This document shows, in pieces, positions 2 through 4,973 of a stretch of DNA of 5,237 nucleotides. Positions within the stretch are counted from its first letter, which is position 1; each line of letters begins with the position of its first letter. The stretch lies in the NCBI GenBank assembly GCA_000004985.1, contig GG739166.1. One strand, written 5' to 3'. The position numbers and the translations under genes were made by a program. The stretch comes from Naegleria gruberi. Its lineage: Eukaryota. Under the pieces are notes generated by a model, which did no database searches, was not told where the DNA came from, and worked only from the letters and a program-made list of their open reading frames with translations.

Positions 2-1040
2 CTGAAAAGAGACAGAGAACTTGTTTTAGAGGCTATTAAGTATAATGTTGATGTTTTGAAATATTGTCCTGATGATATGATAAGTGATAGAGAAATTATT
101 ATGAAAGCAGTCCAGACTGATGGATTTGCCACTTCAATATGCATCAAAACAATTACAACATGACAGAGAAATAGTACTTCTTGCCGTTAAGAATAATGGA
201 AAGAGTCTAAAATATAATTACATTAATAAACATGACAAAGAAATAGCAATGGAAGCTGTTAAGCAAAATGGCCTTGCACTTCAACATGTATGTCATTATT
301 TAAGAGACAAAGAAATTGTATTGGCAGCTATTAAACAAAACATGAGTGCTTTTGAATTTGCATCTATTGAGATAAAAAATGATAGAGAACTTGTAATGGA
401 ACTAGTTAAGAAATGTGGATGGATGTTTGAATATGCCTCAAAACAACTAAGAGGTGACAGAGAAATTGTAACAGAAGCTATTAACCGACATGCTGACATT
501 GTTTATAAACATGTATCAAAGGAATTAAGAAATGACAGACAGTTGGCAATGATAGCAATTAAAAACCATGCATGTTTACTTGCATACGCATCAGAGGAAA
601 TTAGAAATGACAAGGAAATTGTAATGGAAGCTATTAAGGGTAAAAGAGAAACGCTCAAAATGGCATCTAATTAATTGAGAAGTGACAAGTCATTTATTTT
701 AGAACTAGTTCAACAAAATTCAGAAATGCTAAAATATGCCTCTGATGAATTGAGAAACGACAAGGAATTTATATTGGACGTGGTTAAAAAAAGAGTATCT
801 ACTATCAAATATGCCTCTTATGATTTGAAAAATGACAGAGAGTTTATTCTAAATGCTGTGAAACTAAATGCAAAGGTTTTAAAATATGCCTCTGATGATA
901 TACTAAGCAAGAGTTTTACAAATGATAGAGAAATTGTATTGGCGGCAATGAAGCAAGATATCAACACCTATGCATATGCCTCTAATGAGGTAAAAAATGA
1001 TAGAGCAGTTTTATTAGAAATATTGTTTAAGATAGAAACT
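2..1040 (+). repeat. intragenic coding tandem repeats (~75-nt units, about 14 copies) of the DUF4116-like motif
   Basis: The peptide motif YAS..(L/I)(R/K)NDREIV..A(V/I)K.NG recurs every ~25 codons. At the nucleotide level there are shared blocks: aaaatatgcctctgatga at 731-748 and again at 881-898, and aaatatgcctct at 807-818. Each pair is offset by multiples of 75 nt. Confidence 0.7.
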
Positions 1041-1052
1041 TGTTTTATTTAG
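2..1052 (+). pseudogene. DUF4116-like tandem-repeat protein gene, 5'-partial, disrupted by a +1 frameshift and an in-frame stop
   Basis: Translating from nt 2 (frame 2) gives LKRDRELVLEAIKYNVDVLKYCPDDMISDREIIMKAVQTDGFA, then runs into TSICIKTITT and a stop at 161-163. Frame 3 from 120 gives (M)DLPLQYASKQLQHDREIVLLAVKNNG..., which continues the same ~25-aa repeat (units 72-78 nt; consensus LKYAS-ELRNDREIVLEAVKQNG-A, about 14 units in all). Removing one C from GCC at 128-130 joins ...DGFA to LQYASKQL... in a single repeat register. A TAA at 672-674 sits exactly where the other units have E/Q/D (ASN*LRSDK versus ASDELRNDK, ASKQLRGDR, ASEEIRNDK), so it looks like a single GAA/CAA to TAA substitution. 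The repeat continues in frame to 1052. The first residue of track ORF 675..1052 is a TTG codon, an artefact of alternative-start calling. Confidence 0.55.
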
Positions 1053-1133
1053 ATGAAAATAAAGTGAGTTTGACTGGATGATGACATTACAGTTTCAATT
1101 AGATCACTAATCTGTCTAAGATTTGTAAGAACC

Positions 1134-1382
1134 TCAGCACTGACAACAAAGAACACAAATCCAACTCATATTTTCTGTAACAATTTCTGAATTCATCCAT
1201 TTAGAAAGTGACAAGTTTACACCTGTTGGCAATTCATGCATTACCTTTTGAATTTGATTCACGTGATTACCATCCATTCCCTTTTCGAATGGTTTACCAG
1301 CAGTATCAAAGATATGATATTCATGACCATTAGAGGAACCAAGATGAACATGTTCATTGTGTTGTTTTGGGTGTAAAACATG
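1134..1382 (-). CDS. orphan His-rich ORF fragment (82 codons, no start codon; first in-frame ATG at 1277..1275 would give 47 aa); possible gene remnant
   Basis: Minus-strand frame open from 1382 to the TGA at 1136..1134: HVLHPKQHNEHVHLGSSNGHEYHIFDTAGKPFEKGMDGNHVNQIQKVMHELPTGVNLSLSKWMNSEIVTENMSWICVLCCQC*. It is preceded by an in-frame stop at 1385..1383, and its upstream side runs directly into the tandem duplication and the F-box gene start. The composition is protein-like rather than low-complexity. Confidence 0.2.
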   Translation of the reverse strand, partial: HVLHPKQHNEHVHLGSSNGHEYHIFDTAGKPFEKGMDGNHVNQIQKVMHELPTGVNLSLSKWMNSEIVTENMSWICVLCCQC

Positions 1383-1458
1383 TTAATTTAAAAGTCAAGG
1401 AGCAATTTCATAATTTGTTAATTTAAATTGTAAAAGTCAAGGATCAATTTCATAATTT
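1382..1458. repeat. tandem direct duplication (35-nt unit, then a 42-nt copy with a 6-nt insertion and 1 mismatch) immediately upstream of the F-box gene ATG
   Basis: Copy 1 is gttaatttaaaagtcaaggagcaatttcataattt (1382-1416). Copy 2 is gttaatttaaattgtaaaagtcaaggatcaatttcataattt (1417-1458). AAAAAA and the ATG at 1465 follow. Confidence 0.8.
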
Positions 1459-1464
1459 AAAAAA

Positions 1465-2280
1465 ATGTTCACCACAACATACGAGCTATGCAATATTCTT
1501 CAATTTTTACCTCCTCGAGATTTGCTTCCCTTTCGTTTAGTTTCTTCCGTGTGGAATTCTTCTTGTTTAACTAATTCTATTTGGCAACAATTTTGCAATA
1601 TTTACATGAGGAATCATCAATACCATTTCGACTCTCTAGATCTCGACGAGAATTCAACGACTTCAAATTTATTCTATTATCAATTATTCAGAAAATTATT
1701 CTACTTTCCAATAATGAAATCCGTTAAAGTTTATGATGATGAAGAATCACCAACTACAGTGTATCATAATCCTGTGGAGGATATTGTCATGCGTTTGCCT
1801 GATGAATTTGGAAAATTTGTTGAGAAATATGAGTATTGTGAAGAATTGTCGAGATTTGCGTTCATTTCCTTGTTGATTGGATTTCTTTCTGGAAGAAATG
1901 GACGAAAGTTGGACTATTTCAATGATACAGTTCGTGTTGGGAGTAAAGATAAGAAAGAAATAGACGAAATGCCACTATGTTGCTTATTTGCAATCATTCA
2001 ATATTCAGAACCTACTGAATTAATCATTTACACTCCAAATTATTTCCCAAATTCGAAAAGATTTATATTTTGTAATTTTGAATCGGATTTATTTTGGGAA
2101 TTTAAATCTTGTGGTTCAGAACCTTTTATGGAAATTAGAGATTTATACGAAATGTTTCCTTACAAGAGAAATACTGATCTTTCAAAATACAGAAATGGAG
2201 ATGGTGCAATTTATTTTTCAAAGAATTGGAAAGAGTTAACCATTCGAGTTTTGTATTGGGAGCGCTACTTTGATGAATAA
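1465..2280 (+). CDS. F-box domain protein (271 aa) with an uncharacterised aromatic-rich C-terminal region
   Basis: N-terminal residues ~5-48 (nt ~1477-1610), ELCNILQFLPPRDLLPFRLVSSVWNSSCLTNSIWQQF, match the F-box consensus (LPxEIL..I...L...DL.....VSK.W......LW). The 271-codon ORF has an A-rich start context aaaaaaATG. The stop is embedded in gaaTAAAg. Confidence 0.8.
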   Translation: MFTTTYELCNILQFLPPRDLLPFRLVSSVWNSSCLTNSIWQQFCNIYMRNHQYHFDSLDLDENSTTSNLFYYQLFRKLFYFPIMKSVKVYDDEESPTTVYHNPVEDIVMRLPDEFGKFVEKYEYCEELSRFAFISLLIGFLSGRNGRKLDYFNDTVRVGSKDKKEIDEMPLCCLFAIIQYSEPTELIIYTPNYFPNSKRFIFCNFESDLFWEFKSCGSEPFMEIRDLYEMFPYKRNTDLSKYRNGDGAIYFSKNWKELTIRVLYWERYFDE

Positions 2281-2281
2281 A
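2276..2281 (+). promoter_or_regulatory. AATAAA poly(A)-signal-like hexamer overlapping the stop codon of the F-box gene
   Basis: gaaTAAag: the stop TAA at 2278-2280 lies inside AATAAA. The gene at 3181 ends the same way. Confidence 0.3.
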
Positions 2282-2398
2282 GTCTTCAAAGGTTTGATTA
2301 TTAGAAAATCTCTTGCATACTCTAGGCTTAAACACCAATAAGGTGGGACAGCCATTGCAACTCTATACGAGTAGCTTAATTGTTGTTCAATTAAAAAA

Positions 2399-3181
2399 AT
2401 GAGTCTACACCTTAAAGATGAGGCGGAGATCACAAAATATTCTTACTGTCCTACCCTGTTGATTCACAATTTCCCGTACTTCTTACTTTCTGGTAAAACA
2501 AGTCTGACAGATAAAAGTATCAAAGTAAATTACCACTTTACCTCACAAAACATTAAAGAAGTTGTGGATAAAGTTATTGATTTAGGTTTTGCTTTTGTGG
2601 AAACATATAAAATGGTGGAGACATATTATGACGATGAATGCTTCACAAACATGAAACAAAATACATGGATCAAATTAGTAAACACCTCTAATACTAAATT
2701 TAAGAAAATTTCCAAAAAACAAGCGTCAATTATAGAAAGCAATCATATTAAATACGAAGAAGAGGTTTTTCTTGGTGATATTCAGTCCAAATTACAACCA
2801 AAGTTTATGATTGTTGTCTTCAGAAGTATTTACCAAAATAATAACATCCAATTCACGTATGACACTGTGGAATATCAAGAGCACAAGTTTGTGGTATTTT
2901 GCATTTCTGGAAATGTGTCAGAGAGTTCTATTACAGTAGACTACAACCTCCATGATCCTGTATTTGAGGTTTGTATGGCAAGTAGAAGCAAGATAATTGA
3001 GATTATATGGAGAACAAATAAGGAACTTTACAAAATATTACAGGAAAATAATGTAATACCCGATTTGGAATACTCTTCATTTAATTTTGAGCCTTTAATC
3101 GATCGAAACTCATCTTCCTTCAATGAGATGAAAAAGAGAGTCCCACGAAAGTGTGAAAACCTTCAATGTGCAAAGGAATAA
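2399..3181 (+). CDS. hypothetical protein (260 aa); tentative, weak resemblance to the CYTH/thiamine-triphosphatase-like fold with non-canonical active-site residues
   Basis: Long ORF with an A-rich start context (ttaaaaaaATG) and non-repetitive, protein-like composition. Local collinear resemblances to mammalian ThTPase: IKVNYHF versus [28 protein letters not shown] versus [35 protein letters not shown] versus LRVDLDTADFGYAVGEVE. This is similarity by eye only, with no search run. Confidence 0.6.
   Translation: [260 protein letters not shown]
3176..3181 (+). promoter_or_regulatory. AATAAA poly(A)-signal-like hexamer overlapping the stop codon of gene 2399..3181
   Basis: gaaTAAattg: the stop TAA at 3179-3181 lies inside AATAAA at 3176-3181. 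Confidence 0.3.
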
Positions 3182-3273: not shown

Positions 3274-3927
3274 TTAGTTAATTTTTACAGCTTTAATTGG
3301 GGTTTCGAATTGGAATGGATCAAATATTTCAGAGCTGGTATCAATCAACATACTTTCTCTTTCAAGTTGAATCAAAATTCCCTCAACAATACTTCCAGCA
3401 AGATAATCCAACTTTCTAATAGTTGACTGTTGATGATTCTGATAATTTACAAGTGGATAACAGCAGGCTTGACCGCTAATAACTTGTTGAATCCTTTCTG
3501 AACATCTCTTAAAAGCAGAACTGTTTAAAAGAAAGTTCTGAGCTGTTTCTGGATCGACTGAATCATTAAATTGTTGAATTTTAGTATCATCAGCAATCGT
3601 ATCCAATTTGGTAATGGCAAAGGCAACAACTCTTCCCATTTCTCTGGCACTTTCGTGCAAAACTTTGAGTTTTTCCAAGAAACCAGGAGTGAAACAATCT
3701 TCAAATGTCAACATCAACAATACAGCATTGCTTGCTCTCGAAAGATCACTTTCACTAACACTTGGATCATTCTTGGATTGACCAAATTTAAGCATGCCCT
3801 CCAATAAACATTTAAAGCGATCAACTTGCAAATTATCTGAATTGAAATCCCAACCAAAAATATCATTGATTGAGATCTTCTCAGTAAGTGGATAATTATT
3901 AACACTCATGGTAGTATGATCTTGCAT
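3274..3927 (-). CDS. dynamin-superfamily-like protein with a degenerate P-loop (217 aa from the ATG at 3927; alternative ATG at 3909). The ORF is open further upstream to 4119 through N/T/I-rich low-complexity sequence.
   Basis: Collinear matches to the dynamin GTPase domain. Near the N-terminus, EKISINDIFGWDF aligns with the region just after the P-loop, GKSSVLENFVGRDF. Further on, GRVVAFAITKLD matches the G4 region QRTIGVITKLD (TKxD). Then CYPLVNYQNHQ matches GYIGVVNRSQ. The canonical GxxxxGK(S/T) is replaced by YPLTEKIS (both Gly lost, Lys kept), and the switch I/II (G2/G3) region appears deleted. The segment 3928..4119 encodes MKLNRVSIIVNITFEPNILITFTNNTIITITSRSRN..., which looks like AT-rich non-coding sequence, and it contains the AACGTG motif cluster. 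Confidence 0.5.
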   Translation of the reverse strand: MQDHTTMSVNNYPLTEKISINDIFGWDFNSDNLQVDRFKCLLEGMLKFGQSKNDPSVSESDLSRASNAVLLMLTFEDCFTPGFLEKLKVLHESAREMGRVVAFAITKLDTIADDTKIQQFNDSVDPETAQNFLLNSSAFKRCSERIQQVISGQACCYPLVNYQNHQQSTIRKLDYLAGSIVEGILIQLERESMLIDTSSEIFDPFQFETPIKAVKIN

Positions 3928-4019
3928 TTGGATTGTAGTAAGTTCTTGGAATTTGAAACATTTTTTTGTTGTTGAGTTTTGTTTTCTTTCGGTGTGTTTG
4001 TGTATTAAAAGATTTCTGG

Positions 4020-4344: not shown

Positions 4345-4422
4345 TTGGTTAACTAATAGTAAAAAAACAAACACCATCCTAAAGAAACTAAACTCAACAA
4401 CCGAAACATTAACCAAATAAGA

Positions 4423-4774
4423 ATGTCTTCCCCAACCCACTATGCTTGCCTTGAATCCAACAACTCAAAATTCAGATTTGCCTATCATGAATCTTTCTCA
4501 TCCCAACAATCTGGGAAAGTATTCTTGATTGACTTTGAAAATTCTGTCAAGTATATGAATGGCAATTGTCCTCTTGAAGTCATCAATACAAAGGTTTTTA
4601 CTCAATTGGTAAGTGGACTTGTTTCAGTCAAGATTTCAGACGAAACTCAAGGAGTCATTGAACTCACCATTGGAACCAAGTGTTTGAAATTGGAAAAGAC
4701 TGAAATTACAAGTCAAGATTTCCTTCAAGAACAGGTTTACTTATTGGAGAAGAAGTTTGAAAGAATGCTCAAAG
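4423..4774 (+). CDS. exon 1 of a two-exon gene encoding a hypothetical protein with a coiled-coil-like C-terminus (167 aa after splicing)
   Basis: ORF from the ATG at 4423. A canonical splice donor GTAAGT sits at 4775-4780 immediately after ...ERMLKG. The unspliced frame stops at 4783-4785 inside the putative intron. The start context is aaataagaATG. Confidence 0.55.
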
Positions 4775-4824
4775 GTAAGTTGTAGCCATTTCGAATACTT
4801 TGATTGAAAACAACTTTTTAAAAG
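4775..4824 (+). other. putative 50-nt spliceosomal intron (GTAAGT ... TTTTTAAAAG), phase 1
   Basis: Donor gtaagt at 4775-4780. Acceptor AG at 4823-4824 preceded by a T/A-rich tract. Splicing G(4774) to AA(4825-4826) creates a GAA codon and continues in frame for 48 more codons to the TAA at 4971-4973. Confidence 0.5.
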
Positions 4825-4973
4825 AAAATGATAACAAGATTAAAAGTTTGAATGATGAAGTTAATAGCTTAAGAGCAATGAATGAAGAATTGGTTCTAGC
4901 TGTGAGAACCAAGAACGAAGAACCTGTTCAACCAGTTGCTGAAGAAGTTCCACCAGTTGTTGCTGCAGAATAA
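4825..4973 (+). CDS. exon 2 of the spliced gene (…ENDNKIKSLNDEVNSLRAMNEELVLAVRTKNEEPVQPVAEEVPPVVAAE*)
   Basis: The frame +2 relative to exon 1 is open from 4779 to 4973. Its heptad-like charged composition continues the coiled-coil character of the exon-1 C-terminus (QDFLQEQVYLLEKKFERMLKG). The E/V/P-rich tail is not AT-rich junk. AATAAA lies 20 nt downstream at 4993-4998. Confidence 0.5.

What the first reader, a model, noticed from the sequence alone, without database searches (positions are those of the whole stretch)
2..1052. DUF4116-like repeat-protein gene carrying two independent lesions (+1 frameshift and nonsense codon)
About 14 tandem repeat units are interrupted in two places. An extra C in GCC at 128-130 makes ...KAVQTDGFA (frame 2) jump to LQYASKQLQHDREIV (frame 3). 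A TAA at 672-674 replaces the acidic/Q position of the repeat (ASN*LRSDK). Two lesions within 1 kb in an otherwise well-preserved repeat array suggest one of several things. It may be a recently pseudogenised member of an expanded family or a gene fission in progress. It may reflect homopolymer or sequencing errors. A recoding event (programmed frameshift or stop readthrough) is also possible, which is rarer and more interesting. Repeat proteins of this kind often sit in rapidly evolving, host-interaction gene families.
Basis: seen in the sequence. Interest (0 to 1): 0.55.

Follow-up and report, generated by a model that had tools for sequence, protein, structure and literature searches.

The report
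Broken DUF4116 repeat gene in Naegleria
The window is a small unplaced scaffold of the free-living amoeba Naegleria gruberi, and its first kilobase holds an unannotated copy of a known helical-repeat gene (DUF4116) that is broken by a one-base insertion and a stop codon, most likely an ordinary young pseudogene.

Summary
Bases 2-1052 encode 14 tandem 24-30-residue DUF4116 units. After repair they score 470.9 bits against Pfam PF13475 (E 6.8e-145). One extra base at 128-130 shifts frame 2 to frame 3, and a TAA at 672-674 sits where other units have Q, E or D.

The window is an entire 5237-bp scaffold of Naegleria gruberi NEG-M. It is a diverged second copy of part of a 304-kb scaffold. The gene runs off the 5' end and has no gene model. 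No protein in 5.8 billion is more than 43% identical.

TAA ends four neighbouring genes, so the code is standard. Neither lesion has a downstream RNA structure.

A metagenome contig 98.3% identical to 850-2070 gives an outside comparison. The DUF4116 tail shows four substitutions, all amino-acid-changing, plus a 2-nt indel. The adjacent F-box gene shows five silent changes of six and no indel. A truncated, frameshifted GTPase-like relic abuts the gene on the other strand.

Best reading: a young pseudogene (about 0.68). Sequencing error near the end of a small Sanger scaffold cannot be excluded (about 0.2). Recoding is unsupported. Interest is low.

The parts
2..129 (+). 5' visible segment of the DUF4116 array, in frame 2: the end of one unit, unit 1 and the first half of unit 2. 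The ORF runs off the scaffold end, so the start of the gene is missing.
   Evidence: Translation; Pfam PF13475 match of the repaired protein; unit table.
128..130 (+). Frameshift site. One extra base in or next to GCC moves the repeat reading frame from frame 2 to frame 3 (a +1 shift).
   Evidence: DNA repeat spacings of 76, 223 and 295 nt (3n+1) occur only across this point. The best Pfam stretch, residues 29-71, spans the repaired junction.
161..163 (+). TGA in frame 2. Translation from the upstream part of the gene would end here, 11 codons after the shift (...GFATSICIKTITT*).
   Evidence: Frame-2 translation; sequence.
131..671 (+). Middle segment of the array in frame 3: the second half of unit 2 through most of unit 9. 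An ATG at 120 opens a 184-aa ORF (120-674).
   Evidence: AlphaFold2 model of the 184-aa ORF has pLDDT 95.6 and is an all-helical repeat.
672..674 (+). In-frame TAA nonsense codon at the Q/E/D position of unit 9. It is one substitution away from CAA or GAA.
   Evidence: It aligns to GAA and GAT in the neighbouring units (family D5). TAA is the ordinary stop of four neighbouring genes.
675..1049 (+). 3' segment of the array in frame 3: the end of unit 9 through the partial unit 14. There is no ATG at its start. It lacks the C-terminal Y..R(M/I)E..Y.G motif seen in 7 of 9 Naegleria paralogs.
   Evidence: Against the environmental copy L030 it shows 4 nonsynonymous and 0 synonymous substitutions.
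1029..1032 (+). Site of a 2-nt indel relative to the environmental copy. It changes the last residues: the window reads ...EILFKIETCFI*, L030 reads ...EILFN*.
1050..1052 (+). TAG that ends the frame-3 ORF. It overlaps the TAA (1049-1051, minus strand) of the convergent relic.
1049..1382 (-). Neighbouring relic of a P-loop GTPase-like gene. It keeps only the C-terminal half, has no start codon or P-loop, and is frameshifted near 1169 relative to the environmental copy. It marks this stretch as decaying DNA.

Best explanation
Bases 2-1052 are the 3' two-thirds of a DUF4116 helical-repeat gene of Naegleria gruberi that has recently become a pseudogene.

The ancestral product was an alpha-solenoid built of units of about 25 residues. 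Each unit has one 10-residue helix, one 6-residue helix and usually a short third helix. Such a protein most plausibly acts as a protein-binding scaffold. That step is inferred from the fold and from relatives fused to F-box-like or ankyrin repeat domains.

In this copy a 1-nt insertion at 128-130 shifts the frame. A ribosome coming from the missing 5' part would therefore stop at TGA 161-163 and leave about 12 units untranslated. A separate point mutation made TAA at 672-674. The tail also differs by a 2-nt indel between strains.

The repeats still match the family profile as well as intact paralogs do, so the inactivation is young.

The copy lies on a 5.2-kb scaffold that is a diverged second copy (alternative haplotype or segmental duplicate) of part of a 304-kb scaffold. 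It sits tail to tail with another decayed gene.
For: Shown:
- Both lesions are present, and the array is DUF4116 (470.9 bits, 12 stretches).
- The organism and scaffold are identified. P0122 (NAEGRDRAFT_76814) lies on a contig of exactly 5237 bp.
- The second-copy relation is seen in two neighbours. The 188-aa F-box product P0123 is encoded identically on this scaffold and on the 304-kb scaffold. The next gene is 90% identical to P0121.
- No protein among 5.8 billion exceeds 43% identity to the repaired product, so neither copy has an annotated intact gene.
- The genetic code is standard. TAA ends four neighbouring ORFs.
- The four other genes on the scaffold have open frames, so the lesions are confined to this gene and the adjacent relic.
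- The environmental contig L030 is 98.3% identical over 850-2070. In the DUF4116 tail it shows 4 nonsynonymous and 0 synonymous changes plus a 2-nt indel (2.0% divergence). The F-box gene shows 1 nonsynonymous and 5 synonymous changes and no indel (1.0%). The relic and intergenic stretch shows 7 substitutions and 2 indels (1.7%). By my own hand calculation, one-sided Fisher p is about 0.024 for 4:0 against 1:5.
- The adjacent minus-strand GTPase-like gene is truncated and frameshifted.
- The repeats are not eroded: 39 bits per Pfam stretch against 28-43 in nine intact paralogs.

Inferred: the scaffold function, from the confident alpha-solenoid model and from F-box-like, ankyrin, ubiquitin, rhodanese or BRCT matches in relatives.
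Against: - No independent sequence or reads cover 1-849, so neither lesion is confirmed outside the one assembly.
- Both lesions lie within 700 bases of the end of a small Sanger scaffold, where coverage and quality are usually lowest (general knowledge, not tested here).
- The array is very well preserved, which error-free intact coding sequence would also show.
- The constraint test rests on only four substitutions. At least three of them appear to have happened in the environmental lineage, because the window keeps the consensus residue. They therefore say less about the NEG-M copy itself.
- DNA of the 304-kb scaffold could not be retrieved, so I do not know whether its copy shares the lesions.
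Confidence: 0.68

Rival explanations
1. One or both lesions are sequencing or assembly errors in the low-coverage end of a small Sanger scaffold, and the real gene is intact.
For: - Both lesions lie 130 and 672 bases from the scaffold end.
- The repeats are as well preserved as in intact paralogs.
- Codon-position GC is gene-like.
- The window also differs from the environmental copy by three indels in 1.2 kb, and some of these could be errors.
Against: - The rest of the scaffold has four clean ORFs, and 188 residues are identical to the other scaffold.
- By my estimate only about 1 in 20 random base errors would create a stop codon, so an error-made TAA implies a high local error rate.
- All three indels against L030 fall outside the constrained F-box gene, as real polymorphisms would.
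- The tail of the gene shows no purifying selection.
- No intact near-identical protein is annotated from the sister copy.
Confidence: 0.2
2. Gene fission: the lesions split the array into separately made shorter DUF4116 proteins, for example the 184-aa ORF that starts at ATG 120.
For: - An ATG at 120-122 opens the frame-3 ORF just before the shift.
- That 184-aa piece folds confidently on its own in silico.
Against: - The third piece (675-1052) has no ATG at its start.
- Eukaryotic scanning would not normally initiate at internal ORFs of one mRNA (established knowledge).
- No promoter-like gap separates the pieces.
- The tail evolves without constraint.
- No such short products are annotated.
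Confidence: 0.06
3. Recoding: a programmed +1 ribosomal frameshift at GCC-A, together with TAA readthrough or reassignment, yields a full-length protein.
For: Only that simple repairs restore a perfect repeat protein. The GCC ACT T context loosely recalls the Ty3 GCG AGU U site (from memory, not tested).
Against: - TAA terminates four neighbouring genes.
- Downstream RNA folds are ordinary: z = -0.57 and -0.04, like the control segments.
- There is no stop codon at the shift site. The next frame-2 stop is 11 codons later.
- The homologues found are continuous proteins, so the family does not need recoding.
- The tail shows no selection.
Confidence: 0.02

Closest known systems
DUF4116 (Pfam PF13475) repeat proteins of Naegleria, e.g. 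NAEGRDRAFT_75016 (P0044) and the N. fowleri and N. lovaniensis paralogs P0007 and P0017-P0020
   Same: - The same 24-25-residue unit with consensus D(R/K)E.VL.AVK.NG.AL.YAS..L+.
- A strong PF13475 match.
- The same genus.
   Different: - Only 26-36% identical, so this is not a recent paralog of any annotated gene.
- The ORF is broken twice.
- It lacks the C-terminal Y..R(M/I)E..Y.G motif present in 7 of the 9 paralogs read.
- The N-terminal part is missing from the scaffold.
F-box plus DUF4116 fusion protein P0036 (organism unknown, from a public sequencing-run assembly)
   Same: DUF4116 array, 35% identical. It suggests the array can serve as the binding module of an SCF-type ubiquitin ligase adaptor.
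   Different: The window gene shows no F-box in the part that is visible. The neighbouring F-box gene (1465-2280) is a separate downstream gene with no DUF4116 units.
Generic alpha-solenoid repeat proteins (HEAT, ARM, TPR and designed helical repeats)
   Same: An all-helical tandem-repeat architecture is predicted with pLDDT 95.6. A trRosetta alpha-solenoid model for DUF4116 is reported in PMC8078820.
   Different: No solved structure matches by sequence. None matches by fold either: the best Foldseek E-value is 0.024 and TM-scores stay at or below 0.34. It is therefore not a member of those families.

Membership tests
DUF4116 (PF13475) | Match to the Pfam HMM above the gathering score (24.9 bits) | tested here: met
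   The repaired translation scores 470.9 bits, E 6.8e-145, in 12 stretches.
DUF4116 (PF13475) | Tandem units of about 24-25 residues with the family consensus | tested here: met
   14 units. The consensus of the 40-sequence alignment is the same motif.
DUF4116 (PF13475) | Alpha-solenoid fold | tested here: met
   AlphaFold2 model of the 184-aa ORF has pLDDT 95.6 and is all helical repeats. This agrees with the alpha-solenoid model in PMC8078820.
DUF4116 (PF13475) | Continuous open reading frame (a functional member) | tested here: not met
   Frameshift at 128-130 and TAA at 672-674.
Pseudogene | Disabling lesions in a sequence of clear coding origin | tested here: met
Pseudogene | Relaxed selective constraint compared with neighbouring genes | tested here: inconclusive
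   4 nonsynonymous and 0 synonymous changes plus a 2-nt indel in 852-1052, against 1 and 5 with no indel in the F-box gene. The direction fits, but the count is only four and covers only the last 200 nt.
Pseudogene | Lesions confirmed by independent sequence | not testable with these tools
   N. gruberi DNA and reads are not retrievable. The environmental contig starts at 850.
Pseudogene | No protein product spanning the lesions | not testable with these tools
   No transcript or proteome data are available here.
Programmed +1 ribosomal frameshift | Shift site with a stop or slow codon in the zero frame, a stimulatory element, and conservation in relatives | tested here: not met
   There is no stop at the site, and the next frame-2 stop is 11 codons later. 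The downstream fold has z = -0.57. Relatives are continuous proteins. tRNA abundance was not testable.
Stop-codon reassignment or readthrough | TAA used as a sense codon elsewhere, or a known leaky context | tested here: not met
   TAA ends four neighbouring ORFs. The downstream fold has z = -0.04. The TAA-TTG context is not a known readthrough motif (own knowledge).

The most novel reading that the evidence does not exclude
The broken array is still used. Either Naegleria makes a full-length protein by a +1 frameshift at GCC-A plus TAA readthrough, or the pieces, such as the 184-aa ORF from ATG 120, are expressed as separate short solenoid proteins. The second case would be a gene fission caught in progress.
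Probability: 0.05. Interest if true: 0.6.

Novelty: new member of a known kind. Interest (0 to 1): 0.1.

Why it matters
It matters little beyond annotation. It adds an unannotated DUF4116 pseudogene and an adjacent GTPase-like relic to a small N. gruberi scaffold. It shows that this scaffold is a diverged second copy of a region of a 304-kb scaffold.

It also illustrates that DUF4116 arrays turn over in Naegleria. The function of the family is unknown. The F-box-like match in one relative hints at a role as a binding module, but this broken copy cannot test that idea.

If the lesions proved to be errors, the practical result would be one more intact family member and a corrected assembly.

Tried and rejected
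- Ciliate-type code (TAA = Q): rejected, because TAA ends four neighbouring genes.
- An intron bridging the frameshift: rejected, because exactly one base must go and the repeat unit is otherwise continuous.
- RNA editing of TAA to CAA: the only editing I know of in Naegleria is mitochondrial C-to-U (own knowledge). This scaffold carries a gene with a likely spliceosomal intron, so it is nuclear, and the change needed runs in the opposite direction. Rejected without a test.
- Recoding signals: downstream RNA folds are ordinary, and there are no Rfam hits in the window.
- Fetching the sister locus or the window's own record: five exact look-ups found nothing, so N. gruberi is apparently not in the gene-position index.
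- Metagenome scan for close relatives of the array: the best hit is 46% identical, so no orthologue was found.
- Exact DNA pattern across the frameshift site in prokaryotic genomes: no match.
- Exact look-ups of the broken pieces and of the products cut by the ends of the environmental contig: not in the collection.
- My first guess that the minus-strand ORF was hemerythrin-like: no Pfam or PDB support. It proved to be GTPase-like.
- Genomic context of the intact GTPase-like homologue (L031): no DUF4116 gene nearby, so it was uninformative.
The 184-aa ORF was used instead.
- The genome paper and the review were not held, so assembly coverage and heterozygosity figures could not be cited.

Full report
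**What is in the sequence**

Frame 2 is open from base 2 to 129 and reads LKRDRELVLEAIKYNVDVLKYCPDDMISDREIIMKAVQTDGFA. The repeat then continues in frame 3 as LQYASKQLQHDREIV....

Deleting one base at 128-130 restores a regular unit. The repaired 349-residue translation matches Pfam DUF4116 (PF13475) at 470.9 bits, E 6.8e-145, in 12 stretches. The best stretch, residues 29-71, spans the repaired junction.

The DNA gives the same answer on its own. In the repeat families, every start-to-start spacing is a multiple of three except those crossing 128-130, which are 76, 223 and 295 nt.

The TAA at 672-674 is in frame (MASN*LRSDK). It aligns to GAA and GAT in the next two units (family D5).

I count 13 full units of 24-30 residues, one partial terminal unit and three residues of an earlier unit. 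Tandem Repeats Finder does not detect the array at the DNA level. The units are therefore old and diverged, not recently duplicated.

A run of 349 random codons with at most one stop has probability about 8e-12 at this composition. After the shift, frame 2 ends at TGA 161-163.

**Where it comes from**

The 260-aa ORF at 2399-3181 is 100% identical to a predicted Naegleria gruberi protein, NAEGRDRAFT_76814, whose contig is exactly 5237 bp. The window is therefore a whole unplaced scaffold of strain NEG-M.

The same ORF is 90% identical to NAEGRDRAFT_73191 on a 304,373-bp scaffold. The 188-residue product of the neighbouring F-box gene is encoded identically on both scaffolds and has adjacent accession numbers there. 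The window is thus a mosaic, diverged second copy of that region. It could be an alternative haplotype or a segmental duplicate. I could not decide which, because N. gruberi DNA was not retrievable.

The DUF4116 gene runs off the 5' end of the scaffold. It has no gene model. No protein among 5.8 billion is more than 43% identical to it, and the Naegleria paralogs listed are 26-36% identical. An intact copy on the sister scaffold would very probably have been annotated and found. Its absence suggests that copy is also broken or missing. This is an inference.

**The genetic code and recoding**

TAA ends the four other genes of the window: 1465-2280, 2399-3181, 3274-3909 on the minus strand, and 4423-4973. 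The code is therefore standard.

The 100 nt downstream of each lesion fold no better than shuffled sequence (z = -0.57 and -0.04), like two control segments. There is no Rfam hit in the window. Homologues are ordinary continuous proteins.

No intron can account for a one-base excess inside an otherwise continuous unit. I found nothing that supports a programmed frameshift, readthrough or editing.

**Outside comparison**

The minus-strand ORF at 1137-1382 has homologues. One of them, P0124, lies on a 1290-bp metagenome contig, L030, from sample ERZ929261. This contig is 98.3% identical to window 850-2070. It is an independent, environmental copy of the locus. It does not reach either lesion, but it allows a test of constraint.

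| Region | Substitutions | Indels | Divergence |
|---|---|---|---|
| DUF4116 tail, 852-1052 | 4, all nonsynonymous (A>T, L>I, A>T, R>S) | one 2-nt indel near 1030 | 2.0% |
| Relic and intergenic, 1053-1464 | 7 | two 1-nt indels | 1.7% |
| F-box gene, 1465-2070 | 6 (5 synonymous, 1 nonsynonymous) | none | 1.0% |

Three of the four tail changes hit consensus positions. The 2-nt indel rewrites the last residues: the window reads ...EILFKIETCFI* and L030 reads ...EILFN*.

By my hand calculation, the one-sided Fisher probability for 4:0 against 1:5 is about 0.024. The tail of the array therefore evolves like the adjacent non-coding DNA and unlike the adjacent gene.

Two cautions apply. The sample is four substitutions. 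In at least three of them the window keeps the consensus residue, so the changes probably occurred in the environmental lineage.

**The neighbourhood**

The minus-strand stretch 1049-1382 is the C-terminal half of a P-loop GTPase-like protein. It is 43% identical to residues 80-151 of the 162-aa P0125. It has no start codon and no P-loop. In the window it is frameshifted near 1169 relative to L030.

Its stop codon (TAA, 1049-1051) overlaps the TAG of the DUF4116 ORF (1050-1052). Two decayed genes thus lie tail to tail.

The DUF4116 ORF also ends inside its last unit. It lacks the Y..R(M/I)E..Y.G motif that closes 7 of the 9 Naegleria paralogs I read, and no trace of that motif lies downstream. 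This may be a third, older defect.

**State of preservation**

The repaired array scores 39 bits per Pfam stretch. Nine intact Naegleria paralogs score 28-43. GC content by codon position is gene-like. There is no detectable erosion. The lesions are either young or artefacts.

**What the protein was**

AlphaFold2 models the 184-aa ORF, with 39 homologues in the alignment, at pLDDT 95.6 as a regular all-helical repeat. This agrees with the alpha-solenoid model published for DUF4116 (PMC8078820).

No solved structure matches by sequence. None matches by fold either: the best Foldseek E-value is 0.024 and TM-scores stay at or below 0.34.

One search lists precomputed matches to ankyrin repeat, ubiquitin, rhodanese or BRCT families alongside DUF4116 in some relatives. 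I confirmed an N-terminal F-box-like domain in P0036. A role as a protein-binding scaffold is a reasonable inference, but no function has been tested.

**Verdict**

The most likely reading is a young pseudogene of a known repeat family on a redundant small scaffold (confidence about 0.68).

The main rival is sequencing error near the scaffold end (about 0.2). It cannot be excluded without reads. Fission (about 0.06) and recoding (about 0.02) have no positive support.

This is an ordinary finding and of low interest.

Noticed in passing
window 1049-1382, minus strand: Relic of a P-loop GTPase-like gene. It keeps only the C-terminal half (43% identical to residues 80-151 of the 162-aa P0125). 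It has no start codon or P-loop and is frameshifted near 1169 relative to the environmental copy P0124/L030. Its TAA overlaps the TAG of the DUF4116 ORF.
   Followed up: yes
window 1389-1416 and 1431-1458: A 28-nt direct repeat (TAAAAGTCAAGGAGCAATTTCATAATTT, 96% identical, 42 nt apart) ending just upstream of the F-box gene's ATG at 1465. It may be a promoter element. A 1-nt indel against L030 lies at its edge (1389).
   Followed up: no
window 1465-2280 and 2399-3181: The public gene models are shorter than the ORFs. The F-box gene model (P0123, 188 aa) starts at Met84 and omits the F-box itself. The model for the next gene (P0122, 176 aa) omits 84 N-terminal residues that are conserved in its 259-aa paralog P0121. 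The metagenome gene call on L030 uses the longer F-box start.
   Followed up: partly
window 1714-3181 compared with the 304,373-bp N. gruberi scaffold: Divergence between the two copies is mosaic. The 188 F-box residues are identical. In the next protein 26 of 260 aligned positions differ, mostly non-conservatively (only 7 count as similar), while its last 66 residues are identical. This suggests recombination or gene conversion between haplotypes or duplicates, and fast evolution of that orphan gene.
   Followed up: partly
window 4775-4824: A likely 50-nt spliceosomal intron (GTAAGT...AAAAG) joins ORFs 4423-4774 and 4825-4973 into one 166-aa product with a coiled-coil-like C-terminus. It has no Pfam match.
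   Followed up: partly
L030 (reverse complement) 1224-1290, against window 2071 onward: The environmental contig stops matching the window inside the F-box gene at 2070, next to a 24-nt tandem repeat (2060-2108). This may be a structural variant or a chimeric contig end.
   Followed up: no
P0036 (422 aa, public sequencing-run assembly, organism unknown): An N-terminal F-box-like domain (25.2 bits, above the Pfam cut-off) fused to eight DUF4116 stretches. This hints that DUF4116 arrays can act as substrate-binding modules of SCF-type ligases.
   Followed up: partly
window 3951-3984 and 4385-4418: A 34-nt imperfect inverted repeat (76% complementary, arms 400 nt apart) flanks the AT-rich divergent intergenic region between the minus-strand gene that starts at 3909 and the plus-strand gene that starts at 4423.
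   Followed up: no
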